Of a stretch of DNA of 64,000 nt, positions 51,449 to 63,262 are shown one piece after another. The position numbers and the translations under genes were made by a program. The notes beneath the pieces were generated by a model that searched no databases, was not told where the DNA came from, and was given only the letters and a program-made list of their open reading frames with translations. How positions within the stretch are numbered: the first letter of the stretch is position 1; the number at the start of each line of letters is the position of its first letter. Origin of the DNA: Nitrospina sp. LS_NOB (GTDB lineage Bacteria > Nitrospinota > Nitrospinia > Nitrospinales > VA-1); the NCBI GenBank assembly GCA_001542995.1, contig LFLA01000022.1, positions 92,587 to 156,586 on the forward strand, in the 5' to 3' direction.

Positions 51449-51616
51449 CTTTCAAGACGTGCAGGAAATATTTTCAGAGGGGTTCAGCGACTTGAAGAAA
51501 TTTTTCTAGCTACCCCCTCCGGGGAAGGAACATAATGTTGGAAATATCACCGCCCCTGCGGCGAGCAGTTAAACCAGCGTATCGGCGCATTTTCCGGAAG
51601 TCTGGTCGCAGGGGTT

Positions 51617-51901
51617 GTGTTTTGGGTCCTGCCCACCCCGCCCTTCATGCCTATGATTCTGGGCGGATTGATAGGAATGTTCCTGGTTCTGCCACTAAAA
51701 ATCCTATTTATGCCCTTTTTTGGAGCATTTGAGGTAATGATTCCGATGGGAATCATCGGAATGGGAGTAGGAATGGCAACCGGGATGCTATCCCACCTTC
51801 CCGACCTGTCAGCAAATTTGGTTATCGCTGGGGGTGGCTTGATGGGATTTCTCGTTTCCACGGTCATCTATTTCTCCAACAAACGCCTTTCAGAAAAATG
51901 A
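51617..51901 (+). CDS. small hydrophobic membrane protein; start uncertain, possibly frameshifted from the ATG at 51535
   Basis: Gly/Met-rich TM segments. A better RBS (GGAAGGA) precedes the ATG at 51535, which is in another frame. Confidence 0.35.
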   Translation: MFWVLPTPPFMPMILGGLIGMFLVLPLKILFMPFFGAFEVMIPMGIIGMGVGMATGMLSHLPDLSANLVIAGGGLMGFLVSTVIYFSNKRLSEK

Positions 51902-52503
51902 ACTCCAAAAAACAATCTTATGACGGCGTAGCCCGCTTTTTTGACTTTTTTGCCAAGGGAGATATGGCCCGGTGGGGTCCCAGTCAACGCAGTCTGTTCA
52001 AAAACCTGCGTGGAAAAGTTCTCTATATAGGAATAGGAACCGGACAGGAAACCGTCAACTTCCCAGAAGGATTGGATATCACCGCAGTAGACCTGAGTTA
52101 TGAAATGCTCAAGCGGTCCCGGCAACGCGTCGCCAAACTATCCTGGAAAAATCAACCGCTGCCAGATGGATGCAGAGACCACCGCGTTTGCCGACAACAC
52201 CTTCGATACCGTAGTAACCTGTTGCGCCCTCTGCACCGTGAAACAACCGGTACTCTGTCTGGAAGAACTCAAGCGAGTGCTGAAACCCGACGGTAAACTG
52301 GTCATGTTTGAACATGTCTGAGCAAGAATCCGGTTTACGGCCTCGTCCTGAAACTCATGTCACTCATCACCGAAAAACTGCAAGGAACCTACCTCGACCG
52401 CAACACCGTCAGCAATGTCGAGTTGGCAGGATTCAAAATCCACTCGCATAAAAACATCTATCTTGATATCGTCAAAGCATTGGTAGGAAAACCCGCAGCA
52501 TAA
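51898..52503 (+). pseudogene. class I SAM-dependent methyltransferase with two opposite frameshifts
   Basis: VLYIGIGTGQE (motif I) is in frame 1. FDTVVTCCALCTV..LKPDGKLVMFEHV is in frame 2 (52100-52321). The C-terminus LSKNPVYGLV...VGKPAA returns to frame 1 and ends at 52503. Confidence 0.75.
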
Positions 52504-52516
52504 CCACAGAGGATTT

Positions 52517-52963
52517 TTGCTTGAAGAAGTTTACGCAAACAGGCAACGCCTCGGAAACAGGCAACGCCTGATGATACTCGGACTCGAAGACATACCCGGA
52601 GGCACACCCCTTGTTTCTTTCCTCCTCTGGTTGGGACTGTCCGGACTGTTTTATATGGTCTGCTATCTCGCCATTCTCAATGTTCTGGATGACCTGACGA
52701 AAAACAGCCTGCTGAAAATCCCGGCGATGCTCGGAGCAGCCATTCCATCAGCGGGGCTGATGGCGATCTTCCATTACAAACCCTTCGCGCTGGGAGCAGT
52801 AATTTGCATCACTAATTTTTACCGTGTCCGTGCCATGCAGACTTCAGAGAAATGGAAAGACCTCAAACCAAATCCTGCCCTCTTTTATGTCGCCAGCTAC
52901 GCTTATATTTTTCTACTGATGGCCCTGGCAATTTATATCCCCACCCTCGACTTCAGCCAATAG
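52517..52963 (+). CDS. hypothetical membrane protein
   Basis: Four hydrophobic segments. No recognisable motif. Confidence 0.4.
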   Translation: MLEEVYANRQRLGNRQRLMILGLEDIPGGTPLVSFLLWLGLSGLFYMVCYLAILNVLDDLTKNSLLKIPAMLGAAIPSAGLMAIFHYKPFALGAVICITNFYRVRAMQTSEKWKDLKPNPALFYVASYAYIFLLMALAIYIPTLDFSQ

Positions 52964-52997
52964 CTACTTGGCGTCGTAGGGCCAGCTAAAAAAACTT

Positions 52998-53013
52998 CCC
53001 CCTGATAAGGGGG
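52998..53013. repeat. C5/G5 hairpin (CCCCC-TGATAA-GGGGG) in a GC-rich intergenic patch
   Basis: Read directly from the sequence. Same C-arm/G-arm style as the hairpins at 58899-58920 and 58974-58995. Confidence 0.4.
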
Positions 53014-53170
53014 ATTGAGGGGGTTGCATTGCCCGTCTTTGCGAGGAGGCTTTAGCCAACGCGGCAATCTAGCCTCTGCCTGCCCGGCTGTCATCCTGAG
53101 CCTGTCGAAGGGTGAGGCCCTCGAAGCATCAAGACCACCTATCCATAAACCACTGATTTTTAAATAGTTA

Positions 53171-53199
53171 TTGACAATCCAGTGGAGCCGGATTATATT
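53171..53199 (+). promoter_or_regulatory. candidate strong sigma70-type promoter
   Basis: TTGACA (53171-53176), 17-nt spacer, TATATT (53194-53199). Confidence 0.45.
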
Positions 53200-53216
53200 A
53201 GCCCTTATTTAACTAT

Positions 53217-53513
53217 TTGATTTATATAGGCTTACCGATGATTCTCCACATATTTGAATGTTCCAAATGTCAGCGTCAGCAAAAGCATGTCACCTCTACC
53301 CCTTCTCCGCTGGGGCTTTCCTATATGTCCGATTGCGCCACCTGCGATCAGGTGATGACTTTTAAATTTATTCGTGAGGGAAACAGAAAAGAAGACTGGT
53401 ATTCAAACATCCTGCGACAAGTGCAACGGAAACGCACCGAGGAAAAATCCTTCACACCTAAAAGGAAGGACGATCAAATCGATGATGATAAAATCGACAA
53501 GGTAGCAATCTGA
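53217..53513 (+). CDS. small zinc-ribbon-like protein with basic/acidic tail
   Basis: CSKC ... CATC cysteine pairs. The start could be the ATG at 53238. Confidence 0.4.
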   Translation: MIYIGLPMILHIFECSKCQRQQKHVTSTPSPLGLSYMSDCATCDQVMTFKFIREGNRKEDWYSNILRQVQRKRTEEKSFTPKRKDDQIDDDKIDKVAI

Positions 53514-53564
53514 TTATTTTCAAAATCCCCGATAAAAAATTTTATCAAGAATAAAAAAAACCAA

Positions 53565-54074
53565 CTAGTTCAGGAGTCCTCGACAGCGGGCGATATAGGT
53601 GCGGTTAACATCGGCGTGGGGTTGAATTTCGAGGGCTTTTTGAAAACACCGAATAGCTTCTTCGTACCGTCGCAGATCAAACATACATAGTCCCATCCCA
53701 TTCAAGGCGCCAAAATGGTGCGGAATCTTTCGTAGCACTTCTTCACATTCTTTAACCGATTCTTCGTATTGTCCCATGATAAACAGGAGGGTTGCGAGTT
53801 TGTTATGCGCTTCAGAGAAATCCGGACATTTCTCGACCAGGGACCGGAACATTTCAAGAGCTTGCTCGTGTTGCTGACGATCCATCAACCGGGTTCCTTC
53901 ATTCAGTTCCTTCTCCATCTCAGCCCCCAATTGGCTATACCAGAGAATCCATAACCCCCGCGTGGCGTTCTCGCGAATGGAGGGGTCTTCACTCTTCAGG
54001 TCTGCTAGGTATTGCTCAGTTTTGTCCATGGTACAAATAAGTATAGCGGAGAACCTCCGCAGGCGTAACATCAT
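53565..54074 (-). CDS. TPR repeat protein
   Basis: Three or four 34-aa TPR units (AL..F...VE..PD..EAHN.LA...). An alternative start lies at 54029 (MDKTEQYL). Confidence 0.7.
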   Translation of the reverse strand: MMLRLRRFSAILICTMDKTEQYLADLKSEDPSIRENATRGLWILWYSQLGAEMEKELNEGTRLMDRQQHEQALEMFRSLVEKCPDFSEAHNKLATLLFIMGQYEESVKECEEVLRKIPHHFGALNGMGLCMFDLRRYEEAIRCFQKALEIQPHADVNRTYIARCRGLLN

Positions 54075-54413
54075 TCATCAGTTCTCATGGACCTTTGATG
54101 TCCCACCCCCACAAATCTCATGAGGCTGTGAAATCCTCCAACATTAGTTTTATGCCCTATAGGAGGGTGCTGGCGGCGGTTCGCCGCTTTTCCTAGGCTA
54201 AGGGGCTATCCCGTCGGTGCTCGCAGACGGATTTCAGTTCGACCAGGGCGTTGACAATACCGGAGATTTCAGCGATGAAGAAGTTGGGGTCAATGAGATT
54301 TTTTGACGCTGTAATTGCCCAGGCATAAACCGGCTCAGTTTTATCCCAAATTATTTTTCGGATACAATGAATTTCATTACTCCTTATAACTTATTCTTAC
54401 TAAAGCGTGAACC

Positions 54414-55946
54414 ATGCCAAAACCTAACAAGTTCCCCACGCAAATTCCTGGAATAAAAGTTACACAATGGCTAGAGGAATGGAATGAAATTCACTTTGAC
54501 AAGAAAACTTATAAGAAAAAACCAGAACCTTGTTTCTATATATTTTCTCTCTCTGCACCTATTTTACAAAGTTTAAGTGGAATATACCCCAGAACTACAA
54601 AAGGCGGCCAAAGACGTTCCCAAGATCTTGGAATCCAAAGGCAGCATGAAAAGCCTAGGTCCGAAGAAATTAACCAATTTATACACTTTGGTTTTCCTTG
54701 GTCAGATTTGAGCGAGAGGAAAAGGCGATCCCAAGAATTTTCTGATCTAAGAAAACCCGGTTGGTTGCCTACGGCAATTGTTGTAAACATTCTTATTCCA
54801 AATGATAAAAGGCAGGGGAAAAATATTTCTAAGGATGATTTGATCACTATTCAAGAAAAAAATTCAAACGTAAGTCTAAACCTTCCAAAGAACTTTAAGT
54901 TAGGTAGTTGGAAGCCTAAAGGGCTCCCTCCCATAGAAATTATTGACGGTCAGCATCGCTTATGGGCATTTGAGAAAACTAATCTAAAGGGTGACTTTGA
55001 ACTTCCAGTAGTTGCTTTTTATGGTCTAGATATAAGCTGGCAGGCTTACCTCTTTTGGACGATAAATATCAAACCCAAACGGATCAACCCAAGTCTTGCA
55101 TTTGATCTTTACCCACTCCTTCGAGCAGAAGACTGGCTGGACAAGTTTGAGGGCCATTCTATCTATCGTGAAACAAGAGCTCAGGAACTTACAGAGGTTT
55201 TATGGTCTTACCCTGAAAGCCCTTGGTATCAAAGAATTAATATGTTGGGGGAACGTGGTTTAAAAAAACCTATGGTCACACAAGCGTCTTGGATCCGATC
55301 TTTAATGGCAACCAATGTCAAATCCTACAAAGGCTCTAGGGTAAGAGTTGGAGGGCTTTTCGGTGCACCAACAGGCAAGCACGAAACCGTTATTGGCTGG
55401 AATCGGCCACAGCAGGCAGCATTTTTAATTTTAATGGGGCAAATTCTATTTGAAACGGTAACTAACTGCACAGAAAATTGGGCAAAAGCCTTAAGAAAAA
55501 ATGCTATGAAACCACTTTTCGGCAAAGAGGACCCGGCCTTACACGGACCACATACTCTGATTAATACAGACCAAGGTATTAGAGCAATTTTATATATATT
55601 CAACGACCTTTTTTATGTTCGAGCTAAGGAATTGAAACTTGAGAGCTGGTCATTTGGCTCAATTGAAACAGATGATACGACCATAAAAGAAGCACTTTCA
55701 TCCTTAAAAAACAGAAAAATGATTGTTAATTATTTTAGGGAAATTGCTAATTGTTTAAAAAAATTCGACTGGCGTACTTCAGCGGCATCCGGATTGACAG
55801 AAGACGAGCAAATTAGAAAATCGGCTTTCAGGGGAAGTGGGGGTTATAAAGTGCTTAGGATCCAATTATTAAAACCTTTATCCTTAGATAAAAAAGACGT
55901 TGGAAAAGCTAGTAAAGATGTTTTAGCGTACTTGGGTTCTAAATAA
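54414..55946 (+). CDS. DGQHR-domain (DndB / ParB-Srx fold-like) protein
   Basis: Literal motif PPIEIIDGQHRLWAF. Upstream basic blocks (GGQRRSQDLGIQRQH) are as in DndB-like proteins. At 510 aa it has a long C-terminal extension. Confidence 0.7.
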   Translation: MPKPNKFPTQIPGIKVTQWLEEWNEIHFDKKTYKKKPEPCFYIFSLSAPILQSLSGIYPRTTKGGQRRSQDLGIQRQHEKPRSEEINQFIHFGFPWSDLSERKRRSQEFSDLRKPGWLPTAIVVNILIPNDKRQGKNISKDDLITIQEKNSNVSLNLPKNFKLGSWKPKGLPPIEIIDGQHRLWAFEKTNLKGDFELPVVAFYGLDISWQAYLFWTINIKPKRINPSLAFDLYPLLRAEDWLDKFEGHSIYRETRAQELTEVLWSYPESPWYQRINMLGERGLKKPMVTQASWIRSLMATNVKSYKGSRVRVGGLFGAPTGKHETVIGWNRPQQAAFLILMGQILFETVTNCTENWAKALRKNAMKPLFGKEDPALHGPHTLINTDQGIRAILYIFNDLFYVRAKELKLESWSFGSIETDDTTIKEALSSLKNRKMIVNYFREIANCLKKFDWRTSAASGLTEDEQIRKSAFRGSGGYKVLRIQLLKPLSLDKKDVGKASKDVLAYLGSK

Positions 55947-57272
55947 ATGCCGCCTCTCAGATCCACGCTTAATAACGCCTCTAGAAGTGCAGTTCGCAAT
56001 TCATTTAAAAATCTAGAAAAACACTTTTCCGATAGAAGATGGATAGGCCCAAGAAATTACTATAAGACCGACTGCATAAACAGGTTAAGTAATTCTCCAA
56101 GGGAGTCTCAATTAGCTCAATATATTGCTGCATCTGCACCTGTTCATTGCATGGACGGTTGGGGTTTTATAGGAAGGGCTTTGGATTGTTTAGCAAAAGG
56201 AGACACCTATGTATCGAGGCACCTGGGATATTATGCCGAATTAAGAGCTACAATGGCTTTATTGGCGACTGAAGGAATTGGAATTTTTAACCAAAAACAT
56301 TTTATAATAAATGGTAACAACCAGTGCACCAGAATCTCTCAAAACATGGGAACCCATGACATGGCTTGGAGTGCTTTAGAGACCTGGGCAAACCTACCTC
56401 AATCCTCCAGTCTTTTGGGTGAAATTATTTCAAGTCACAGAATATCTTTAATGGATTGGATGATAGGATTTTTCCCTGGAGGAGGGTTTCCAACAATCGG
56501 AACGACTTGGTTAAAAGCATGGGGAGTAGATTTAAGAGAAATAAGTAATGATAGAGGAATTCGAAATGAAGCTAGTTATAGACCTACAAGGTTAAATAAT
56601 ATTGCGCCCCAGCCTCCTAATGAGTGCATACAATTTATCAATGAATTTTGGACCCTATTTGAACCAAGCGAAAGTTTACCATTTAGCAACCTCGACCAAC
56701 ATTTGGCGAGAGAAAGTTTAGATAAAATTTATAAAAGTATTACAGGAAAAAGACCAAATCCTGCTACTAAAAAATTCACCCAACTCATTAATTCAACGGT
56801 AAACCACTTTTTTGACCCCATCACCTCATTAGTCAGTAATAACTATTTGAAAAAATTTTTTACTAGAGCTGTTCAACCCGAGACGCCGAATTTGATTAAA
56901 TATGCTGAAAAGCCACCCTCGCTAACAGATCCAGACCTTCATTTCCAAATTATATCTCGTGCAGCTCTTCTTCTAAGAATAGCCACTGGAGCTACTGCCC
57001 AGCTATTTAAACATCAAAATCTAGACAAAATGAGTTTAGATTTTTGGTGGAAGCCACTAGGGGAGGAACGTGGTTTTTGGGAACCCGGCAATGAACCTAG
57101 TAATTTTTCTGACCTGTGGGCAGATCTAGAAGTGGTTTTGAATGAAGAAAAGAGTTGGAGAGAACAAGTGGGGAGTGCTCTTAGTTTTAATTCCTGGCAT
57201 AATAATAATTCGGATTGCATCCAAAAACTAGGAGGCTGCGAAAGAATTGCCTTATGGGGTTTCGGGTTTTAA
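55947..57272 (+). CDS. hypothetical 441-aa protein, no motif recognised
   Basis: The ATG immediately follows the TAA of the DGQHR gene. Clean ORF with the same AT-rich composition. Confidence 0.6.
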   Translation: MPPLRSTLNNASRSAVRNSFKNLEKHFSDRRWIGPRNYYKTDCINRLSNSPRESQLAQYIAASAPVHCMDGWGFIGRALDCLAKGDTYVSRHLGYYAELRATMALLATEGIGIFNQKHFIINGNNQCTRISQNMGTHDMAWSALETWANLPQSSSLLGEIISSHRISLMDWMIGFFPGGGFPTIGTTWLKAWGVDLREISNDRGIRNEASYRPTRLNNIAPQPPNECIQFINEFWTLFEPSESLPFSNLDQHLARESLDKIYKSITGKRPNPATKKFTQLINSTVNHFFDPITSLVSNNYLKKFFTRAVQPETPNLIKYAEKPPSLTDPDLHFQIISRAALLLRIATGATAQLFKHQNLDKMSLDFWWKPLGEERGFWEPGNEPSNFSDLWADLEVVLNEEKSWREQVGSALSFNSWHNNNSDCIQKLGGCERIALWGFGF

Positions 57273-57316
57273 ATTGTCAAAAACTATCCAGAACTAACTT
57301 ACCAGAACTAACTTAA

Positions 57317-58129
57317 ATGAAAAATTCTAATTACAACATCCTTCCTCCTCTTAAATGGGCTGGAGGAAAACGTTGGTTGGTAAACGAACATTTAAATCTA
57401 TTTCCAAAAAATTTTAACCGGTATATTGAACCTTTTTTTGGAAGTGGGGCCGTTTTTTTCAAATTGCAGCCACCAAAAGCGACTCTCTCTGATTTAAATA
57501 GTGAGTTAATTGAAACCTATAAATCAATTAAGAGTGACTGGAGGAAAGTATTCCAAGCTTTAAAAACACATCAAAGACTTCATACAAAGGACTATTATTA
57601 CAAAGTAAGAGCACAAAAGCTAAAAGCCCCATACTCTAAAGCGGCCCGTTTCATTTACCTGAATAGGACCTGTTGGAATGGTTTATATCGGGTTAATTTA
57701 CAAGGAAATTTCAATGTCCCAATAGGCACGAAAACCAAAGTGATTTTGGATTCAGACGATTTTGAAGGGGTCGCCAAATTATTGAAAAATTCAAGACTAT
57801 TGGCAGAAGATTTTAAAACAATTATTGAGCAAGCAAAAAAGGGCGACTTTTTATTTGTCGACCCACCATACACTGGGATGCACAATCAAAATAACTTCAT
57901 AAAATATAATGAGAAATTATTTAGTTTAGACGACCAAATTCACTTAAACGATTCCCTTGTCAAAGCCAAAAAAAGAGGGGTGAAAATTCTTTTAACAAAT
58001 GCCTGTCACCCTTTTGTCAAAAAGCTCTACAAAGACCATTTTGAAATGATTAGAGTTAGCAGAAAAAGTGTTATTGCTGCAAATCCTAAAAACAGAACCC
58101 CCATAGAGGAGTTTGTCATAACTACTTAA
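57317..58129 (+). CDS. Dam-family (D12 class, alpha-type) N6-adenine DNA methyltransferase
   Basis: LKWAGGKR, EPFFGSGAVF (FxGxG) and FVDPPY (DPPY), in alpha-class order. Confidence 0.85.
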   Translation: MKNSNYNILPPLKWAGGKRWLVNEHLNLFPKNFNRYIEPFFGSGAVFFKLQPPKATLSDLNSELIETYKSIKSDWRKVFQALKTHQRLHTKDYYYKVRAQKLKAPYSKAARFIYLNRTCWNGLYRVNLQGNFNVPIGTKTKVILDSDDFEGVAKLLKNSRLLAEDFKTIIEQAKKGDFLFVDPPYTGMHNQNNFIKYNEKLFSLDDQIHLNDSLVKAKKRGVKILLTNACHPFVKKLYKDHFEMIRVSRKSVIAANPKNRTPIEEFVITT

Positions 58130-58201
58130 ATGCAAATAAAAAAGAGGGGCTTAGTTAATACAGGAACGGCAACCACATCGGGGTTTGGGCGCGGTAGTTC
58201 T

Positions 58202-58870
58202 CTAGTCTTCGCCAAATTGCTCTTTTAAGGCCAGTTCTTCAAAATGGATTCTGAACTGGAAACCGAACCAGGCGGAAAGTGTACCGAGCGTTCCCCAAAT
58301 CCATGAGTGGGTGGTGATGGCATAGGCAAGAATGACCAGCATCATCATCGTGTAAGTCGGGTGACGCATGCGGCCATGAAGGCCATCGGTTTTTAGGGTC
58401 TGTTTTTCGCGAAAGGCAATGTTGAACTTGAACCGCAAAACCCCCAGCTGAACTATCGCCCAGACGCGCAGTATGGACCCGACAATAAAAAGCGTCACTA
58501 TCAGACTGATTTCCAAAACGGTGACCGGCGCTACGCCGGCGCGGGCAACAAACGACATACCCACCAGAGCCATGCAAATGGGTAACACATGTCCAAAGAG
58601 CTGTTGGAAATAAGGTTTATCAAAAGTGATGTCTTCGGGTTTTTCGGTCAATGCGAAAATGACTATCTCAATGATGCCAAAAATAAAATTGATGTAGGAA
58701 ACGAGGAGGAATCGTTCAATATTGGTGTCGGTCATCCCTAGAGGAATGAGGGGTGCCAGATAGGTGAGCCCGACCAGGATGATGTTGAAATTGAAGTTCT
58801 TGATCAAACAGGCAGCAAAAACCACGCAATAAACGGTAAAATTGATTTTTAACAGGAAAATGGCATCCAC
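58202..58870 (-). CDS. isoprenylcysteine carboxyl methyltransferase (ICMT)/phospholipid methyltransferase family membrane protein
   Basis: Polytopic. C-terminal L.T.G....RHPTY....L......H signature (GLHGRMRHPTYTMMMLV) and EE.L...FG. Confidence 0.6.
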   Translation of the reverse strand: MDAIFLLKINFTVYCVVFAACLIKNFNFNIILVGLTYLAPLIPLGMTDTNIERFLLVSYINFIFGIIEIVIFALTEKPEDITFDKPYFQQLFGHVLPICMALVGMSFVARAGVAPVTVLEISLIVTLFIVGSILRVWAIVQLGVLRFKFNIAFREKQTLKTDGLHGRMRHPTYTMMMLVILAYAITTHSWIWGTLGTLSAWFGFQFRIHFEELALKEQFGED

Positions 58871-58898
58871 ACGTTGTTCCTCAAAATGACAATTTGTT

Positions 58899-58995
58899 CC
58901 TCCCCTGTCATGAGGGGAGGCCAGGAGGGGTGTGGATTTTCCTGGCTAAATTCGTGAGCTAACCCTCCCCTAGCCCCTCCCTATGAAGGGAGGGG
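58899..58995. repeat. two 8-bp C-arm/G-arm hairpins (CCTCCCCT-GTCATG-AGGGGAGG and CCCCTCCC-TATGAA-GGGAGGGG)
   Basis: Read directly at 58899-58920 and 58974-58995 in the divergent intergenic region. Confidence 0.45.
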
Positions 58996-59159
58996 AAGCT
59001 AAATCTCTTCCCTAAATAGTTTACCCGCACACATTATTGCTGAAACATCCAGAATCTGGTATTCTACTGTTCTTCAAGGTATTTTTGTTATAAAATACTG
59101 TGATATTCAATGCGTGATCCCTATTTGTGACCATTTCTACCAGTTCCACAAATTCGGGT

Positions 59160-59165
59160 TATAAT
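59160..59165 (+). promoter_or_regulatory. perfect TATAAT -10 hexamer just upstream of leader element copy B
   Basis: TATAAT lies 11 nt before the first hairpin of the element. No good -35 was found. Confidence 0.3.
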
Positions 59166-59176
59166 TGACTCATTTT

Positions 59177-59278
59177 GGCGGGGTACCCCCGTTGGTAATG
59201 GGCAAAATCTTGTTAGCCGAGAAAACTTTTTGCTAGCGGATGTGAATTAAACCTGAACTTTCGTGCCCCGCAGGGGTA
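59177..59278 (+). other. conserved hairpin-flanked element, copy B, abutting the reductase start codon
   Basis: GGCGGGG-TAC-CCCCGTT hairpin, identical 18-nt block at 59194-59211, shared CCGAGA..TTTTGCT.GC.GA.GTGA, and CCCC-GCA-GGGG (59266-59276) followed by TA-ATG. Confidence 0.5.
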
Positions 59279-61702
59279 ATGAAGCCTTTGCAGTTTACCA
59301 CCGGCAGTTTGCCGGTACTGAGGGAAATAATGGATACAAAAGCACTAAATATTCCGGACGAGGTCCGGCAGGAAATTGATGCCTTCGCCGCAGAGGTGGA
59401 GCGTTTGAACCGGGGCGAAGTTGGCGACGACGACTTCAAACGGTTCCGTCTGCAACAGGGAATTTATGGTCAGCGTCAGGATGGCGAGCAGATGGTGCGA
59501 ACCAAACTACCTGCAGGAAAAATGACCAGCGATCAATTGCACTGTCTGGCGGATTTTGCCGATAAATATTCTCACGGCATCCTGCACATCACCACACGCC
59601 AGGATATCCAACTTCATTATGTAAACATTCAAAACGTTGCCCAGGGCCTTGAAGACCTTGCTCAGTCAGGCGTCACCACCCGGGAAGCCTGTGGCAACAC
59701 CGTGCGTAACGTAACCGCCTGCCACAAAGCGGGGACCTGTTCCACAGAAGTGTTTGATGTCGCCCCTTATGCGCTGGCGGTTTCAAAATATCTCCTGCGT
59801 AAAGATTTAACGCAGAACCTGCCGCGAAAGTTCAAGATCAGCTTCGGCGGTTGTAACGGATGCGGGCTGGCACCGATCCACGACATCGGGCTCAAAGCAG
59901 TTATTCAGAATGATGTACGCGGTTTCCGCGTTCTGATTGGTGGTGGGCTGGGCTCGTTCCCCCATGCGGCAAAACATTTGGTCGATTTTATTCCGCAAGA
60001 CAATCTGTTGCAGTTGTGTGAGGCCATTGTCTCCGTCTTCGACAAATACGGCGACAAAAGAAACCGCAATAAAGCCAGGTTGAAGTTTGTGGTCGATAAG
60101 CTTGGCATGGATAAAATCAAAGAACTCTATGAAGAGGAATATGCGGCGCTGAATGGAAAGACCTACCCGGCTATTGAGGATTTAGAGAGCGGCATTCCAG
60201 AAATCCCTGCATATAAGCCCAACAACCATCACGACTCTGATCCGGAGTTCCAACTCTGGAAAGGACGGAACATTGAGGCGCAGAAACAAGAGGGATTCAA
60301 CAACGTCCAGATCAAATTGATACTCGGCGATTTCAATGTTTCACAGGCTAAAGCATTGGCAAGCATTGCCGAAAAATATGCAGGTGCAAGCATCATCTGC
60401 ACGGTCAACCAGAACGTGATGATCCCCTGGGTGAAAGAAAATGCCTTCGGTTGTATCTATCACGAACTCAAAAACATCGGGTTGCATAAAGCCGGTACCG
60501 AAGAGATCCGCGATATCACTTGTTGTCCGGGTTCAGAAACCTGTAACCTCGGCATCACGGCTTCGCGCGGGTTGGTGCAGGAACTCAACAAGGAAATGGA
60601 AAACGGATTTGAGACCACCAAGGATCTTGACCATGTTTCCATCAAGGCGAGCGGCTGCCCGAACTCCTGCGGACAACATCATATTGCCTCCATCGGTTTT
60701 CATGGAGGAGCAAAAAAAATAAATGGTATTCTAACTCCTCATTATGAAGTTTTTCTTGGTGGAAGGGTTTCGGAAGATGATGTGGTCTTTGGCACATCGG
60801 TCATTAAAATTCCTGCCAAAAATGCTCCAGCAGCCACGAAGCTAACGCTCGAAGACTATAAAGCCGGGAAACAAGACGGCGAAATGTTTGGCGAATATTT
60901 TGACCGTAAAGGTAAAATTTATTTCCGCGACTTGCTCAGTCAGCTTAAAGCTTTACCGGAGATTGAGAAGTCCCCGGAATCTTATATCGATTACGGGTCC
61001 ACAGAAAAATTCAGCCTCGAAGATCGTGGTCAGGGCGAATGTGCCGGTGCTGTCACCGACATGATCACCGACCGCATCACCGAAGCCGAGCGGGCCCACT
61101 TCCAGGGCAAGCTCAGCCTGGAGAAAAAATCGTTCAAGGAAACATGTCAACACGCCAAGCGTTCGGTCATTGCTTCGGCCCGTGCCTTGCTAGTTACCGA
61201 GGGCATGGACTTCAATGATGACTGGGAGTGTCTGAAAAAATTCCAGTCTCTGGTCATCGATATGGAAATTGTATCGGCAAAATTTGCAAAGCTGATAGAC
61301 AGCTTTGAGGCAACTCCTGAAGCCGCAGATGAAAAAATGGCGGAATGGTGGTTGTCGGATGCCGGAGAACTGGTTGCGGAAAGTAAAAAGATTCAGGGCA
61401 CCATGCAATCGGAAAAAACTTTAAGAATGCGTGTCGGGGGGGATGATCCGAAAGAAAAGGCTAAATCAGAAAACGGTGGTGGCAAACAGAGCATTGACCT
61501 TCTCGGAGTCAAATGTCCGTTCAATTACGTCAAAACAAAAATCAAGCTCGAGACAATGGCACCCGGAAGCGTGTTGGAAGTATTGCTGGATGCCGGTGAA
61601 CCTTCTGAGAATGTGCCTCGCAGTATTAAAAATGATGGACACAAGGTTGTTTCCCTGACTGAAGAAAACGGCCATTACAAACTGACCGTGGAAAAGAATT
61701 AA
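59279..61702 (+). CDS. sulfite/nitrite reductase (sirohaem-[4Fe-4S]) fused through a helical linker to a TusA/SirA-like domain
   Basis: Duplicated NiR/SiR halves. Cluster/sirohaem cysteines CCPGSETC and GCPNSC. The C-terminal 70 aa (LLGVKCPFNYVKTKIKL...VLEVLLDAGEPSENVPRSIKNDGHKVV) are TusA-like. Confidence 0.75.
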   Translation: MKPLQFTTGSLPVLREIMDTKALNIPDEVRQEIDAFAAEVERLNRGEVGDDDFKRFRLQQGIYGQRQDGEQMVRTKLPAGKMTSDQLHCLADFADKYSHGILHITTRQDIQLHYVNIQNVAQGLEDLAQSGVTTREACGNTVRNVTACHKAGTCSTEVFDVAPYALAVSKYLLRKDLTQNLPRKFKISFGGCNGCGLAPIHDIGLKAVIQNDVRGFRVLIGGGLGSFPHAAKHLVDFIPQDNLLQLCEAIVSVFDKYGDKRNRNKARLKFVVDKLGMDKIKELYEEEYAALNGKTYPAIEDLESGIPEIPAYKPNNHHDSDPEFQLWKGRNIEAQKQEGFNNVQIKLILGDFNVSQAKALASIAEKYAGASIICTVNQNVMIPWVKENAFGCIYHELKNIGLHKAGTEEIRDITCCPGSETCNLGITASRGLVQELNKEMENGFETTKDLDHVSIKASGCPNSCGQHHIASIGFHGGAKKINGILTPHYEVFLGGRVSEDDVVFGTSVIKIPAKNAPAATKLTLEDYKAGKQDGEMFGEYFDRKGKIYFRDLLSQLKALPEIEKSPESYIDYGSTEKFSLEDRGQGECAGAVTDMITDRITEAERAHFQGKLSLEKKSFKETCQHAKRSVIASARALLVTEGMDFNDDWECLKKFQSLVIDMEIVSAKFAKLIDSFEATPEAADEKMAEWWLSDAGELVAESKKIQGTMQSEKTLRMRVGGDDPKEKAKSENGGGKQSIDLLGVKCPFNYVKTKIKLETMAPGSVLEVLLDAGEPSENVPRSIKNDGHKVVSLTEENGHYKLTVEKN

Positions 61703-62583
61703 TGCTGATTAGCATGACCGGATTTGGCCGGGCAGAGTGCCAGGATGGAGATTACTCCTATAAGGCTGAAATCCGATCGGTCAACAACCGTTTTATAGAA
61801 ATCAATACACGCCTGCCTAAAGCTTTTCTGGATATGGAACTCCCCCTGAAAAAGCTGATCAAGTCGCATTGCGCACGAGGCTCCATCAACATCACCATTT
61901 CCCTGTCCAACTCCAATGGCAATTCTGGAGAATGGGAAATTAAGCCTAACCTTCCCCTTGCCTCTCAATATGTAGAAGCCGTAAAAGAAATTCAAACTTC
62001 TCTAGGGCTCGAAGGCAAGTTGAACATTGATTCTGTGATTGGGCTTAGGGATATCTTAAAAGTAGAACCCGTTGCCATCGATCCGGCTAAAGAAGGCCTG
62101 CTCTTAAACATGGCGGAATCTGCCCTCGCCTCGCTACAGAAAATGCGGGAAGAAGAAGGGCAGCATTTACAAAAGGACCTTTCAGAACGCCTTGACAACA
62201 TCGAAAAACACGCAGAGCAGATAAAAAACCGGCAACCGGAAGTCATCCGGGAATACAAGGCCCGGCTTAAGGAAAAAATCAAACTACTTAACGACGGTAT
62301 CGAGATTGACGAGAGTCGCCTGGCCCAGGAAACCGCTATTCTGGCAGACCGGTGCGACATTACCGAAGAAATCACGCGGCTGGGTAGCCACCTCAATCAA
62401 TTCAGAAAATTATTTGACTCGTCAGAGCCTATAGGCAGGAAACTGGAATTCATCACCCAGGAAATCAACCGGGAGGTCAACACAATGGGTTCGAAATCCA
62501 GCGATACCCAGTTGGCCAATCTGGTCATCGAGATAAAAAGCACACTTGAAAAGATACGGGAACAGTTGCAGAACATTGAGTGA
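61702..62583 (+). CDS. yicC: YicC family protein
   Basis: MLISMTGFGRAE start and C-terminal EFITQEINREVNTMGSK motif. TAATG overlap with the upstream gene. Confidence 0.85.
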   Translation: MLISMTGFGRAECQDGDYSYKAEIRSVNNRFIEINTRLPKAFLDMELPLKKLIKSHCARGSINITISLSNSNGNSGEWEIKPNLPLASQYVEAVKEIQTSLGLEGKLNIDSVIGLRDILKVEPVAIDPAKEGLLLNMAESALASLQKMREEEGQHLQKDLSERLDNIEKHAEQIKNRQPEVIREYKARLKEKIKLLNDGIEIDESRLAQETAILADRCDITEEITRLGSHLNQFRKLFDSSEPIGRKLEFITQEINREVNTMGSKSSDTQLANLVIEIKSTLEKIREQLQNIE

Positions 62584-62636
62584 TTGATTTTCTCAGTTTT
62601 CACCGCAAAATTTTATAAATTTCTGGGGTCGCTACA

Positions 62637-63260
62637 ATGCCTGAAGGATTTGCCCTGATACTTTCCGCCCCTTCCGGGACAGGAAAAACCACCACCTGCA
62701 AACTTTTGCGCGAAGAATTGCCTGATTTAAAATTCGCAGTTTCTCACACCACCCGAGAAATCCGGAATGGCGAAAAGGATGGGGAGGATTATATCTTCGT
62801 ATCCAAAAAAGAATTCGAAGATAAAATCGAAAATAATGGTTTCCTCGAATGGGCTCAGGTCCACAGTTTTTATTATGGTACCTCTCTGGAGTCCGCTGAT
62901 GCAACTCTAAAAAGCGGACACGACACTCTTCTGGAACTGGATGTTCAAGGTGTTGAATCATTGCGGAAAATGGAATACCAGGGAATTTATATTCTTATTC
63001 TTCCGCCATCGATTGCAGAAATGGAAGCCCGGCTCAATAAACGAGGGACCGATTCAAAAGATCGAATCCAACAACGAGTAGAAACCGGAAAAGAGGAAAT
63101 CAAGAAATATAAAATGTACGATTACGTCATCACCAACCATGTGGTCAAAGATACGGTGAATGCTGTCCTCTCTATCCTGCAGGCGGAAAAATTCAAAGCC
63201 TGCCAGTACCGCCCTACCTCACCCGACATTGAAGTATTATTAAAAGATGGGGTTGATTGA
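62637..63260 (+). CDS. gmk: guanylate kinase
   Basis: SAPSGTGKTT P-loop, SHTTR and YYGT motifs. Confidence 0.9.
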   Translation: MPEGFALILSAPSGTGKTTTCKLLREELPDLKFAVSHTTREIRNGEKDGEDYIFVSKKEFEDKIENNGFLEWAQVHSFYYGTSLESADATLKSGHDTLLELDVQGVESLRKMEYQGIYILILPPSIAEMEARLNKRGTDSKDRIQQRVETGKEEIKKYKMYDYVITNHVVKDTVNAVLSILQAEKFKACQYRPTSPDIEVLLKDGVD

Positions 63261-63262
63261 AC

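What the first reader, a model, noticed from the sequence alone, without database searches (positions are those of the whole stretch)
54414..58129. AT-rich three-gene island: DGQHR (DndB/ParB-like) protein + 441-aa orphan + Dam-family methyltransferase, a candidate uncharacterised DNA-modification/defence module
**Gene content.** The first ORF carries the literal DGQHR signature (IEIIDGQHRLWAF). That signature defines DndB of the dnd phosphorothioation operon and the DndB-like proteins reported beside 7-deazaguanine (dpd) DNA-modification clusters.

**Operon structure.** Its TAA stop is followed directly by the ATG of a 441-aa protein in which I recognise no motif. Forty-four nt later comes a D12/Dam-type N6-adenine methyltransferase (KWAGGK, FFGSGAVF, VDPPY). 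All three genes are on the same strand with tight spacing, so this is probably one operon.

**What is missing.** None of the usual DGQHR partners are present: no dndACDE, no sspBCD, no tgt-like dpdA. There is also no recognisable restriction nuclease or helicase.

**Composition and flanks.** Hand counts on a few 60-nt lines inside the island gave about 27-32% G+C (one line ~50%), against ~48-60% in flanking lines. This suggests horizontal acquisition. The flanking genes (a TPR protein and an ICMT-like membrane methyltransferase) are unrelated. A start-less coding remnant abuts the left edge.

**Working model.** The methyltransferase marks self DNA, and the ParB-fold DGQHR protein plus the orphan sense or attack unmarked DNA. 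Alternatively, the DGQHR protein regulates the methyltransferase in the way DndB regulates dnd.
Basis: partly seen in the sequence, partly recalled or inferred. Interest (0 to 1): 0.85.

Follow-up and report, generated by a model that had tools for sequence, protein, structure and literature searches.

The report
Uncharacterised DGQHR–partner–methyltransferase restriction-like cassette
A horizontally acquired three-gene cassette (a ParB-like "DGQHR" protein, an unknown partner protein with no structural match in the PDB, and a DNA adenine methyltransferase) recurs across bacteria and archaea and sits where sister genomes carry a restriction-modification system, so it is probably an undescribed restriction-like defence module, though no experiment has tested this.

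Summary
Three co-directional genes sit at 54414-58129: a DGQHR protein, a 441-aa orphan abutting it (TAA then ATG), and a Dam-family methyltransferase 44 nt later.

- **Linkage.** The DGQHR and orphan genes are adjacent in every one of about 90 loci with enough sequence, from many bacterial phyla and Methanoregula. They are usually translationally coupled.
- **Third gene.** It is nearly always a DNA-modification gene, but an interchangeable one: Dam-type D12, a long (~380 aa) D12, MT-A70, or dndCDE. In the dnd loci the pair occupies the dndB position.
- **Hotspot.** Two sister genomes carry, at exactly this site, a type I R-M system or another methyltransferase cassette.
- **Orphan.** Its model is confident (pLDDT 94) and all-alpha. 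It has no PDB or viral fold match, no family in four libraries, and 15 invariant, largely polar residues.

Best reading (about 0.55): a restriction-like self/non-self module. The methyltransferase marks self DNA, the DGQHR protein acts as an NTP-dependent sensor, and the orphan is the effector. Main rival (about 0.25): the pair controls or assists modification, as DndB and DpdB do.

I found no description of the triad in the searchable literature. Nothing has been tested experimentally.

The parts
53565..54074 (-). TPR-repeat gene: conserved left border of the variable hotspot (not part of the cassette)
   Evidence: Pfam TPR families. Homology to sister genomes L092 and L093 runs up to window 54067-54103 and then stops.
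54104..54413 (.). Cassette-specific leader (310 nt), presumed promoter/regulatory region. It contains a 65-codon start-less open stretch on the minus strand (about 54215-54410) of unknown meaning.
   Evidence: No homology to the sister genomes. No promoter-like site was found on the + strand of the leader, and overall site counts are no higher than in shuffled sequence. The open stretch has no Pfam or locus match.
54414..55946 (+). DGQHR-domain (ParB/Srx-fold, DndB-like) protein, 510 aa: proposed NTP-dependent DNA sensor or switch
   Evidence: TIGR03187 65.3 bits, above the cutoff; PF14072 26.9 bits. The QR pair (Q75 nearly invariant, R76 invariant), D178-G-Q-H-R182 and F214...N218 are conserved in 49 homologues that are 54-62% identical to the window protein across phyla. 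The gene lies directly upstream of the orphan in every locus with upstream DNA. AF2 pLDDT is 78.5, with no PDB fold or sequence hit.
55947..57272 (+). Orphan partner protein, 441 aa: all-alpha, no structural match in the libraries searched, enzyme-like invariant residues; proposed effector
   Evidence: No hit in four family libraries. AF2 pLDDT 94, pTM 0.94. Foldseek finds no match at E<0.1 in the PDB or BFVD, and a profile search of PDB sequences finds nothing. The family has about 1,224 representatives at 50% clustering; all of the top 150 listed are single-domain. H67, W72, H92, Y95, L99, R100, T136, H137, D195, R206, N207, S210, Y211, R338 and W367 are invariant in 130 sequences, down to 23% identity.
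57288..57315 (+). Exact tandem duplication of the 14-mer CCAGAACTAACTTA, filling the orphan-methyltransferase spacer and ending 1 nt before the methyltransferase ATG
   Evidence: Not present at the equivalent junction of 14 other Dam-type loci. Function unknown.
57317..58129 (+). Dam-family (D12 class) N6-adenine DNA methyltransferase, 270 aa: proposed self-marking enzyme, possibly GATC-specific
   Evidence: PF02086 187.9 bits; TIGR00571 254.8 bits against a cutoff of 114.85. The best PDB relatives are DpnM (7e-51), E. coli Dam (1e-31) and T4 Dam. In the alignment, the residues matching EcoDam K9, N120, L122, R124 and P134 are conserved; R137 and Y138 are not.
58130..58154 (.). Right edge of the variable segment
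   Evidence: Homology to both sister genomes resumes at window 58155/58156 (= L092 8714 = L093 9076).
58202..58870 (-). ICMT/PEMT-like membrane methyltransferase gene: conserved right border of the hotspot (not part of the cassette)
   Evidence: Pfam ICMT/PEMT. 93-94% identical to the sister genomes over the ICMT gene.

Best explanation
The island is a mobile, self-contained restriction-like (self versus non-self) module built around an obligate two-protein core.

Proposed mechanism:
1. The methyltransferase marks host DNA with m6A, probably at GATC in this copy.
2. The DGQHR protein, a ParB/Srx-fold NTP-binding switch, binds DNA and reads whether that mark is present. It may do this directly or through the modification enzyme.
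3. On unmarked (invader) DNA it licenses its translationally coupled partner, the 441-aa all-alpha orphan. The orphan carries the effector chemistry, probably a phosphodiester hydrolase acting on nucleic acid.

Shown here:
- gene content and domain assignments;
- strict DGQHR-orphan linkage with coupling at the junction;
- near-universal presence of an adjacent, interchangeable modification gene;
- mobility, and occupancy of an R-M hotspot;
- enzyme-like conservation in the orphan.

Inferred only: NTP dependence, who senses what, the orphan's activity, any anti-phage effect, and GATC specificity.
For: 1. LINKAGE. The DGQHR gene lies immediately upstream of the orphan in every locus with upstream sequence, whether the locus was found through the orphan or through DGQHR. 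Sources: 80 GTDB loci, 7 IMG/VR loci, 2 plasmids and several metagenome contigs. The stop-to-start distance is -4 to +4 nt in 49 of 62 measured junctions.

2. MODIFICATION PARTNER. Among 81 distinct loci, a D12-class methyltransferase is adjacent in 65 (long type 51, Dam type 14) and DndC in 3. Four of the 9 'none' loci are truncated contigs. The exceptions carry MT-A70 (L045, L063) or an HsdM-type enzyme (L059). The long partner passes the PF02086 threshold. Triad composition persists even where the orphan is only 23-27% identical (L098-L100).

3. SWAPPING. Dam-type partners appear in at least 5 separate places on the DGQHR+orphan tree, and the window's pair is nearest to pairs with the long D12. 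The pair needs 'a modification enzyme', not a particular one. This is the logic of R-M and Ssp/Dnd-type systems.

4. HOTSPOT. Sister genomes (neighbouring genes 93-97% identical) carry between the same TPR and ICMT genes, with an identical right breakpoint, either a complete type I R-M system (L092) or an unrelated 448-aa protein plus a D12 methyltransferase (L093). On Zymomonas plasmids the triad (pZZM405) and a PIN/HTH module (pZM32) alternate at one backbone position, next to a DUF4433/macro pair.

5. FOREIGN ORIGIN. GC is 37.9% against 45.4%, and GC3 0.32 against 0.55. The distribution is patchy: 168 of 185,579 species, many bacterial phyla plus Methanoregula.

6. CO-DECAY. In L084 both the methyltransferase and the DGQHR gene are disrupted by insertion sequences. 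In L095 the DGQHR gene is frameshifted while the methyltransferase is intact.

7. ENZYME-LIKE ORPHAN. Fifteen strictly invariant residues, including His, Arg, Asp, Tyr, Ser and Thr, across 130 sequences.

8. PRECEDENTS.
- ParB-fold DUF262/DGQHR-type domains are reported fused to HNH, PD-(D/E)xK or HEPN nucleases and linked to R-M systems (PMC3632139). In the GmrSD family a ParB/Srx-fold GmrS domain is paired with a predicted HNH nuclease domain (PMC4619093).
- A DndB-like protein binds ATP and GTP (bioRxiv 10.1101/2025.10.10.680097).
- HEPN(MAE_28990)-ParB-methylase operons were noted in 2013 (PMC3710099).
Against: - There is no experimental evidence of restriction, toxicity or methylation for any member. 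The tempting ZM4 methylome data do not apply, because the triad plasmid is from strain CP4 and pZM32 of true ZM4 lacks the triad.
- The orphan has no recognisable nuclease fold or motif. It is all-alpha, so it is not PD-(D/E)xK, and no HNH, HEPN, HD or PLD hit was found.
- It is hard to see how one highly conserved reader (DGQHR proteins 54-62% identical to the window protein across phyla) could discriminate marks as different as m6A in various sequence contexts and backbone phosphorothioate.
- In three loci the pair occupies the dndB position of a dnd operon. DndB is reported as a regulator and DpdB as a modification cofactor, so the known DGQHR precedents lean towards the modification side.
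- Two or three loci (L015, L058, possibly L050) show an apparently intact pair without a recognised adjacent modification gene.
- GATC is not specially depleted in the host window (observed/expected 0.85, similar to other palindromes).
- No phage genome in INPHARED carries the orphan, and defence-island enrichment was not quantified.
Confidence: 0.55

Rival explanations
1. The pair belongs to the MODIFICATION side, not the restriction side. The DGQHR protein, with its partner, either controls how much or where the adjacent enzyme modifies DNA (as DndB represses dnd), or acts as an NTP-driven cofactor that loads the enzyme on DNA (as DpdB ATPase is needed for DpdA). The cassette would then be a regulated epigenetic or modification module without a nuclease.
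For: - The DGQHR precedents with reported functions act on the modification side. DndB is reported as an ATP-dependent negative regulator of PT modification (PMC4507180, listed; summarised in PMC10853773). DpdB ATPase is required for preQ0 insertion (PMC10164549 abstract).
- In L030/L101, L012 and L018 the pair sits exactly where dndB sits, upstream of dndC-D-E.
- The pair always travels with a modification gene, and often overlaps it (ATGA junctions; -33 to +6 nt offsets).
- The orphan has no recognisable nuclease fold.
Against: - About 950 residues of strongly conserved, enzyme-like protein is a lot of machinery to regulate a 270-aa methyltransferase that works alone in other organisms (Dam, DpnM).
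- The same pair serves at least four unrelated modification enzyme classes that have been swapped repeatedly. That is hard to reconcile with a specific loading cofactor.
- The cassette alternates with complete R-M systems at a chromosomal hotspot, and with toxin-type modules on plasmids.
- A methyltransferase plus its regulator has no obvious selfish or defensive benefit that would explain the wide horizontal spread.
- The protein fails the DndB and DpdB equivalog thresholds.
Confidence: 0.25
2. The cassette is chiefly a selfish addiction (post-segregational killing) or abortive-infection module. The orphan is a toxin (for example a divergent HEPN-like RNase), held in check by the DGQHR NTPase and/or by methylation status. 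It would be released on loss of the cassette or on infection, killing or arresting the cell rather than cutting invader DNA.
For: - Location among toxin-antitoxin and similar modules: a DUF4433/macro pair, YafQ/DinJ and HicAB on pZZM405, with a PIN/HTH module as the alternative occupant of the same plasmid slot, and RHH/PIN/MazE genes next to L002.
- The invariant R206-N207-x-x-S210-Y211 resembles the HEPN R-N-x-x-x-H motif, with Tyr in place of His.
- Recurrent ParB+HEPN themes nearby: DndB+HEPN_Swt1 proteins after the triad in L016, L051 and L074. ParB-HEPN-methylase operons appear in the 2013 HEPN survey, where HEPN proteins linked to R-M systems are interpreted as second-line suicide effectors.
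Against: - No HEPN model in Pfam, NCBIfam or PADLOC matches any of 61 orphans, even at E<=1.
- The canonical catalytic His of Rx4-6H is absent.
- A simple toxin-antitoxin logic does not explain the near-obligate methyltransferase.
- This reading overlaps heavily with the best explanation, since R-M systems are themselves addictive.
Confidence: 0.1
3. The pair is a Type IV-like, modification-DEPENDENT restriction system (as in GmrSD, SspE or BrxU) that attacks foreign modified DNA. The neighbouring methyltransferase would be an independent or merely co-mobilised gene.
For: - ParB-fold DGQQR/DGQHR-type domains are the sensor/NTPase half of GmrSD-family Type IV enzymes (PMC4619093; PMC12839542).
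- A few loci lack an adjacent methyltransferase.
Against: - A modification gene is adjacent, and often translationally coupled, in roughly 85-90% of loci despite repeated partner replacement. Hitch-hiking would not be expected to produce this.
- No DUF262 or DUF1524 (HNH) match was found.
- A Type IV enzyme co-resident with a methyltransferase that creates a common mark would risk self-attack.
Confidence: 0.04

Closest known systems
HEPN(MAE_28990)-ParB nuclease-DNA methylase operons (computational note in Anantharaman et al. 2013, PMC3710099)
   Same: A three-component theme: a ParB-superfamily protein, an alpha-helical partner and a DNA methylase in one operon, interpreted as R-M-linked conflict systems.
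   Different: - The orphan matches no HEPN model (Pfam, NCBIfam, PADLOC) in any of 61 members.
- It lacks the Rx4-6H motif (it has R-N-x-x-S-Y).
- At about 445 aa it has a fold with no detected neighbours.
- The 2013 entry is a single table line without experiments. I could not retrieve MAE_28990 itself to compare directly.
Dnd phosphorothioation systems (DndB as the DGQHR component)
   Same: - A DGQHR/ParB-fold protein is encoded next to a DNA-modification enzyme.
- In three relatives (L012, L018, L030/L101) the pair literally occupies the dndB position upstream of dndC-D-E.
- A DndB-like protein binds ATP and GTP.
   Different: - The window has no dndA/C/D/E; the modification enzyme is a Dam-family methyltransferase.
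- The protein is 510 aa, and only about 125 positions of the 338-position DndB profile match, below the Pfam threshold.
- It always comes with the 441-aa partner, which canonical dnd operons are not known to include.
Dpd 7-deazaguanine system (DpdA/DpdB/DpdC)
   Same: A DGQHR protein (DpdB) works with a DNA-modifying enzyme. DpdB is an ATPase needed for modification (PMC10164549).
   Different: - The DpdB equivalog scores 21 bits against a cutoff of 300.
- No TGT-like dpdA, dpdC or dpdD-K genes appear among the called genes around the island; a dedicated window-wide search for them was not run.
- The modification here is methylation.
GmrSD / SspE / BrxU-type enzymes (ParB-fold DUF262 NTPase + DUF1524 HNH nuclease)
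   Same: - The architecture is analogous: a ParB/Srx-fold sensor with a D-G-Q-x-R motif coupled to an effector, sometimes split into two proteins (GmrS + GmrD).
   Different: - The motif is DGQHR, not DGQQR, and there is no DUF262 Pfam hit.
- The partner is not an HNH/DUF1524 protein.
- Those enzymes are modification-dependent or PT-sensing, whereas this cassette is tied to adenine methyltransferases.
Classical Type II R-M systems with Dam-family methyltransferases (e.g. DpnII: DpnM + R.DpnII)
   Same: - A compact, mobile cassette with a D12 methyltransferase closest to DpnM (7e-51).
- Foreign composition.
- It occupies a site that holds R-M systems in sister genomes.
   Different: - There is no protein with a known restriction-endonuclease fold.
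- The candidate 'R' function is two proteins of about 950 aa in total.
- One of them is far more conserved than restriction enzymes normally are (54-62% identity to the window protein across phyla).
- The methyltransferase class is interchangeable.
PD-Lambda-5 (PADLOC two-gene system with a Dam-like methyltransferase)
   Same: The window methyltransferase weakly matches PD-Lambda-5_B (31.8 bits).
   Different: Neither the DGQHR protein nor the orphan matches PD-Lambda-5_A or any other PADLOC 2.0 model, apart from a weak DpdB hit. The methyltransferase matches generic Type II models far better.

Membership tests
DGQHR-domain proteins (TIGR03187; ParB/Srx superfamily) | Score above the curated domain threshold, and presence of the QR pair, the DGQHR pentapeptide and the FxxxN motif | tested here: met
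   65.3 bits against a cutoff of 58.85. R76, D178-G-Q-H-R182, F214 and N218 are invariant and Q75 is nearly invariant in 49 homologues. The motif definitions come from PMC4619093.
DndB (Dnd phosphorothioation system) | Passes the Pfam PF14072 gathering score or a DndB equivalog | tested here: not met
   26.9 bits against a gathering score of 29.1, covering only profile positions 34-159 of 338. The related DGQHR_dnd_1 model (TIGR04172) scores 69 bits against a cutoff of 450.
DndB (Dnd phosphorothioation system) | Encoded with dndC/dndD/dndE | tested here: not met
   No DndC/D/E homologue in the 64-kb window. The feature is met in three relatives only (L012, L018, L030/L101).
Dpd system (DpdB) | DpdB equivalog score, and the presence of TGT-like dpdA | tested here: not met
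   NF041060 scores 21.1 bits against a cutoff of 300, and PADLOC DpdB 17.2 bits. No dpdA-like gene appears among the called genes around the island; no dedicated window-wide search for dpdA was run.
Dam family / D12-class N6-adenine DNA methyltransferase | Family HMM above threshold, motif I (FxGxG) and motif IV (DPPY) | tested here: met
   TIGR00571 scores 254.8 against 114.85, and PF02086 187.9 against 22. FFGSGAVFF and VDPPY are present in the translation.
Dam family / D12-class N6-adenine DNA methyltransferase | GATC specificity | tested here: inconclusive
   The closest solved relatives are all GATC enzymes (DpnM, EcoDam, T4 Dam). Equivalents of EcoDam K9, N120, L122, R124 and P134 are conserved, while R137 and Y138 are not (the residue roles are from my memory of the EcoDam-DNA structure work). 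No methylome data are available, and GATC is not notably depleted.
Type II restriction-modification system | A cognate endonuclease with a recognised nuclease fold (PD-(D/E)xK, HNH, GIY-YIG, PLD) | tested here: not met
   Neither partner matches any nuclease family or solved nuclease structure. The orphan is all-alpha.
Type II restriction-modification system | Restriction of unmodified DNA and protection by the cognate methylation | not testable with these tools
   This needs plaque or transformation assays and a methyltransferase deletion. The only published methylome found (ZM4, PMC8432527) concerns a strain without the triad.
GmrSD/SspE/BrxU (DUF262 + DUF1524) | A DUF262 domain with DGQQR, and an HNH-type DUF1524 nuclease domain | tested here: not met
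   None of the 49 DGQHR proteins or 61 orphans gives a DUF262 or DUF1524 hit. The motif is DGQHR.
HEPN superfamily (incl. MAE_28990 family linked to ParB + methylase) | Match to a HEPN family model, and a conserved Rx4-6H motif | tested here: not met
PD-Lambda-5 | Both the A and B components present | tested here: not met
   Only a weak B match by the methyltransferase (31.8 bits); no A match.
ParB-CTPase-fold NTP switches | Nucleotide binding or hydrolysis through the P-motif arginine | not testable with these tools
   The arginine-containing motif (DGQHR) is invariant, and a DndB-like protein bound ATP and GTP in vitro. Binding by this particular protein is untested.

The most novel reading that the evidence does not exclude
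The DGQHR protein and its all-alpha partner form a new kind of modification-agnostic 'reader-effector' restriction core. In this reading a ParB/Srx-fold NTP switch senses whether DNA carries the mark laid down by whichever modification enzyme is plugged in beside it (Dam-type or long D12, MT-A70, or Dnd phosphorothioation). It then activates an effector enzyme of a previously unseen fold. That would also give the long-puzzling DGQHR/DndB protein class a function as a sensor in self/non-self discrimination, rather than only as a transcriptional repressor.
Probability: 0.3. Interest if true: 0.85.

Novelty: new variant of a known kind. Interest (0 to 1): 0.7.

Why it matters
If it works as proposed, this is an undescribed family of restriction-like immune modules.

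- **Spread.** The orphan family has about 1,200 clusters at 50% identity. It occurs in roughly 0.1% of sequenced species, across many bacterial phyla and in methanogenic archaea.
- **Unrecognised.** In this analysis PADLOC 2.0, Pfam, NCBIfam and PHROGs did not recognise the orphan. The DGQHR protein is recognised only as a DGQHR/DndB-like domain, so no library flags the triad as a system.
- **New components.** Its 'restriction' half has no known nuclease. Instead it has a ParB-fold NTP-binding protein and a confidently modelled partner with no structural neighbour, so it could reveal new effector chemistry.
- **Plug-in design.** The same core works beside m6A methyltransferases of several classes and beside Dnd phosphorothioation. 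That gives a direct handle on what DGQHR/DndB-type proteins actually do, a question still debated for both Dnd and Dpd systems.
- **Practical side.** The triad is on native plasmids of Zymomonas mobilis CP4-type strains. It may therefore be an unrecognised barrier to engineering such strains, and it offers a culturable host in which to test the system.

Tried and rejected
1. **ZM4 methylome as evidence against constitutive methylation.** Lal et al. found only three m6A motifs in ZM4, and the triad is on a record labelled 'ZM4 pZZM405'. I rejected this argument. Yang et al. 2018 show that pZZM401-405 come from strain CP4, and the true ZM4 plasmid pZM32 has a PIN/HTH module in place of the triad.
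2. **Fold and sequence searches for the orphan and the DGQHR protein.** Foldseek against the PDB for both, Foldseek against BFVD for the orphan, and profile searches against PDB sequences all gave nothing significant.
3. **Weak recurrent Pfam signals across all alignment members.** None for the orphan; only DndB for the DGQHR protein.
4. **A His-Me-finger (beta-beta-alpha) nuclease motif in the orphan.** The idea centred on H118 and the only beta-hairpin, followed by T136-H137. I dropped it because H118 is not conserved in the divergent members.
5. **L093's 448-aa protein as an orphan homologue lacking DGQHR.** It is unrelated (E 1.2).
6. **Mobility signatures at the island edges.** No direct repeats, tRNA or integrase are present. 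The nearest tRNA is 5.6 kb away.
7. **GATC depletion as a footprint of restriction.** Not distinctive: 0.85, within the range of other palindromes.
8. **The spacer tandem 14-mer as a conserved operator.** Not conserved in other loci.
9. **The leader's open stretch as a gene remnant.** No match anywhere.
10. **Phage carriage.** No INPHARED record matches. Seven IMG/VR contigs carry the full triad, but I did not check whether those contigs are really viral.
11. **Literature searches.** I searched DGQHR; DndB-like with methyltransferase; DndB/HEPN/ParB with methylase; ParB-like with adenine methyltransferase; and DpdB. None describes this triad.
12. **One look-up failed.** A DGQHR-side context look-up (P0235) failed for lack of capacity.

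Full report
**1. What is in the window**

ORF listing confirms three co-directional genes at exactly the stated coordinates:
- 54414-55946, 510 aa, with the literal string IEIIDGQHRLWAF.
- 55947-57272, 441 aa, whose ATG follows the TAA of the first gene directly.
- 57317-58129, 270 aa, after a 44-nt spacer.

Family assignments:
- The first protein passes the curated DGQHR-domain threshold (TIGR03187, 65.3 bits against 58.85). It does not reach the Pfam DndB gathering score (26.9 against 29.1) or the DpdB and DGQHR_dnd_1 equivalog cutoffs.
- The third is an unambiguous Dam-family D12 methyltransferase (PF02086 187.9 bits; TIGR00571 254.8 against 114.85). Its closest solved relatives are DpnM, E. 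coli Dam and T4 Dam.
- The middle protein matches nothing in Pfam, NCBIfam, PADLOC 2.0 or PHROGs.

Composition: the shift is real but was overstated.
- The island is 37.9% GC against 45.4% for the window. It is the lowest of all 3.7-kb windows (SD 2.0%).
- GC3 is 0.31-0.33 against 0.54-0.58 in neighbouring genes.

tblastn with representative Dnd, Pbe-like and type I proteins finds no homologue anywhere in the window. The 'start-less coding remnant' is a 65-codon open stretch on the minus strand of the leader. It matches nothing.

**2. The conserved unit is a pair plus an interchangeable modification gene**

*Family sizes.*
- The orphan has at least 919 homologues at 90% clustering. An exhaustive profile search gives 1,224 representatives at 50% clustering. 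All of the top 150 listed are single-domain proteins, mostly around 445 aa.
- The DGQHR protein's close relatives are 54-62% identical to it across phyla. That is much more conserved than the orphan (about 40%).

*Distribution.* A scan of one genome per species found 168 carriers among 185,579 species. They span Planctomycetota, Acidobacteriota, Verrucomicrobiota, Cyanobacteria, Chloroflexota, Actinomycetota, Alpha- and Gammaproteobacteria, Desulfobacterota, Patescibacteria, Elusimicrobia, Acholeplasmataceae and the archaeon Methanoregula.

*Linkage.* In every locus with upstream sequence, the DGQHR gene lies directly before the orphan. The junction is -4 to +4 nt in 49 of 62 cases. Sampling from the DGQHR side gives the same arrangement.

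*The third gene.* It is not constant. Among 81 distinct loci:
- A roughly 380-aa protein that passes the D12 Pfam threshold follows the orphan in 51.
- A window-type Dam is adjacent in 14, either before or after the pair; in other loci (L096, L106) it is convergent.
- DndC is adjacent in 3.
- Four of the nine 'none' loci are truncated contigs.

The remaining exceptions:
- L045 and L063 carry MT-A70-type genes.
- L059 carries an HsdM-type enzyme.
- L077 has a D12 gene on the other strand.
- L015, L058 and the archaeal L050 remain unresolved.

Seven IMG/VR contigs all carry the triad, including three whose orphan is only 23-27% identical.

*Partner swapping.* On an NJ tree of the concatenated pair, Dam-type partners appear in at least five places. 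The window's pair is closest to pairs with the long D12 (no support values). So modification partners have been exchanged repeatedly.

*The dnd context.* In L030/L101 the gene order is dnd_assoc_4, DGQHR, orphan, DndC, (Uma2), DndD, DndE, with a Pbe-like module upstream. The pair therefore sits in the dndB slot.

**3. Mobility and genomic context**

Sister genomes whose neighbouring genes are 93-97% identical to the window carry other cassettes at this site. The left breakpoint is at window 54067-54103 and the right at 58155/58156, and the right breakpoint is identical in both sisters.
- L092 has a complete type I R-M system (HsdR, HsdS, HsdM and accessory genes).
- L093 has an unrelated 448-aa protein plus a distant D12 methyltransferase (22% identity).

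The variable segment is thus 54104-58154. It has no flanking repeats, integrase or adjacent tRNA.

The site is a recombination hotspot for methyltransferase-containing cassettes. The left flank is only 83-86% identical to the sisters.

On Zymomonas plasmids, the same backbone position between a PI-PLC gene and a macro-domain gene holds different modules. pZZM405 holds the triad, and pZM32 holds a PIN/HTH module. Rhizobium tumorigenes pRt932 carries a long-D12 version next to transposon genes.

Decayed copies exist. In L084 both the methyltransferase and the DGQHR gene are interrupted by insertion sequences. In L095 the DGQHR gene is frameshifted.

**4. The proteins**

*DGQHR protein.* The three hallmark motifs of the domain are conserved: the QR pair (Q75 nearly invariant, R76 invariant), DGQHR (178-182) and FxxxN (F214, N218) (motif definitions from PMC4619093). 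Its model is moderate (pLDDT 78.5) and finds no significant structural or sequence neighbour. A ParB-like protein, PadC, appears only at rank 10.

Published work on the class:
- A DndB-like protein binds ATP and GTP.
- DndB is reported as an ATP-modulated repressor, though NTPase or nuclease roles are debated.
- DpdB is an ATPase required for DpdA-mediated base exchange.

*Orphan.* Its model is very confident (pLDDT 94, pTM 0.94). It is almost entirely alpha-helical, with 23 helices and one small hairpin. It has no Foldseek match below E = 0.1 in either the PDB or BFVD (TM <= 0.2) and no profile hit to PDB sequences.

Fifteen residues are strictly invariant across 130 sequences, including the most divergent: H67, W72, H92, Y95, L99, R100, T136, H137, D195, R206, N207, S210, Y211, R338 and W367. 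This pattern suggests a catalytic or ligand-binding site. The chemistry cannot be named:
- The R-N-x-x-S-Y motif is HEPN-like but lacks the His, and no HEPN model matches.
- A His-Me-finger idea failed on conservation.

*Methyltransferase.* Equivalents of EcoDam K9, N120, L122, R124 and P134 are retained. GATC is therefore a reasonable but unproven specificity. GATC is not specially avoided in the window.

**5. Interpretation**

The data fit a mobile self/non-self module best. The reasons:
- An obligate two-protein core always travels with some DNA-marking enzyme.
- It swaps that enzyme freely and spreads horizontally.
- It alternates with bona fide R-M systems at a hotspot.
- It shows coordinated decay.

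I therefore favour, at about 0.55, a restriction-like mechanism. The methyltransferase marks self DNA, the DGQHR protein acts as an NTP-dependent DNA sensor, and the orphan is the effector.

The main rival, at about 0.25, is that the pair controls or assists modification. This follows the DndB and DpdB precedents and the dndB-slot loci. Against it stand three points: the amount of conserved machinery, its promiscuity towards unrelated modification enzymes, and the lack of a selective rationale for the wide spread.

Abortive or addiction variants (about 0.10) and a Type IV reading (about 0.04) are less likely.

A real difficulty for the favoured model is how one conserved reader could recognise both m6A and phosphorothioate marks. 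Read-out through the modification enzyme itself, as in Type I/III and BREX-like systems, is one way out. It is pure inference.

**6. Relation to known systems and novelty**

| Candidate family | Result |
|---|---|
| Dnd | Not a member: threshold and partner genes not met in the window |
| Dpd | Not a member: DpdB equivalog far below cutoff, no dpdA seen nearby |
| GmrSD/SspE | Not a member: no DUF262 or DUF1524 |
| PD-Lambda-5 | Not a member: no A component |
| Classical Type II R-M | Not a member: no known nuclease fold |

The closest published idea is a single table line in the 2013 HEPN survey. [quoted passage not shown] The orphan fails every HEPN test available here.

Five further literature searches found no description of the triad, and PADLOC 2.0 has no model for it. 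I could not consult current DefenseFinder, REBASE or AFDB.

I therefore rate it a new variant of a known kind: a modification-linked restriction-like system with novel components.

**7. Caveat on an attractive false lead**

The triad lies on a record labelled Z. mobilis ZM4 pZZM405. The published ZM4 methylome shows no Dam-type motif. That would have argued against constitutive methylation. However, those plasmid records derive from strain CP4, and true ZM4 lacks the triad. The methylome is therefore uninformative. CP4-type Zymomonas strains nevertheless offer a culturable native host for the decisive experiments.

Noticed in passing
window 57288-57315: An exact tandem duplication of the 14-mer CCAGAACTAACTTA fills the orphan-methyltransferase spacer and ends 1 nt before the methyltransferase ATG. 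No obvious Shine-Dalgarno sequence is present. It could be an operator or a slippage duplication.
   Followed up: partly
window 54215-54410 (minus strand): A 65-codon stop-free stretch without a start codon lies in the cassette leader. It has no Pfam hit and no match in any fetched locus, so its origin is unknown.
   Followed up: yes
L092 972-8713 (sister genome, same chromosomal site): A type I R-M system occupies the hotspot. Its HsdS is fused to a Pol-beta-type nucleotidyltransferase and is followed by an NTase_sub_bind gene (an MNT/HEPN-like pair embedded in the R-M operon) and a RAMA-domain gene. The bordering ICMT gene is truncated to 124 aa.
   Followed up: no
L093 6540-9079 (sister genome, same site): A different cassette: a 71-aa ORF, a 448-aa protein containing 'VVWEGNRRIT' (a ParB-like GxRR motif) with a weak Csm6-HEPN hit (E 0.011), and a 287-aa D12 methyltransferase. 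This may be an example of the ParB+HEPN+methylase operons listed in the 2013 HEPN survey.
   Followed up: partly
L016 5958-7799; L051 about 1.3 kb after the orphan; L074: Large proteins (614-765 aa), carrying a second DGQHR/DndB domain plus a Swt1-like HEPN domain, lie directly after the triad's methyltransferase in three loci. They could be a four-gene variant or an adjacent system.
   Followed up: no
L103-L105 2514-4985: An 823-aa AEP-TOTE/ResIII/DEAD helicase gene ends 16 nt before the DGQHR start, on the same strand. It may be an accessory helicase in some versions of the cassette.
   Followed up: no
L088/L090 (NC_013788.1 'ZM4 pZZM405') vs L091 (pZM32): The database record is labelled ZM4 but derives from strain CP4, according to PMC5930841. 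The triad sits beside a DUF4433/macro-domain gene pair. In true ZM4 the same slot holds a PIN/HTH module, and pZM32 also carries SIR2 and TIR genes.
   Followed up: yes
L084 4827-9001; L095 2243-6001: Decayed copies. In L084 insertion sequences interrupt both the long D12 methyltransferase and the 5' end of the DGQHR gene. In L095 the DGQHR gene is frameshifted and separated from the orphan by about 2.2 kb of inserted DNA, while the Dam gene is intact.
   Followed up: partly
window 51898-52321 and 51459-52570: A SAM-dependent methyltransferase-like gene appears split over two overlapping reading frames (132 aa + 73 aa), probably by a frameshift. About 1.1 kb here has no counterpart in sister genome L093.
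   Followed up: no
window 52898-54103 vs 58155-64000: The left flank of the hotspot is only 83-86% identical to the sister genomes, whereas the right flank is 93-97% identical. This suggests a recombination breakpoint at the hotspot.
   Followed up: no
L020, L024, L026, L033, L039, L043 orphan/Dam junctions: In several alphaproteobacterial loci the orphan's TGA stop overlaps an ATG (ATGA) that may start the Dam gene. If so, all three genes may be translationally coupled there.
   Followed up: partly
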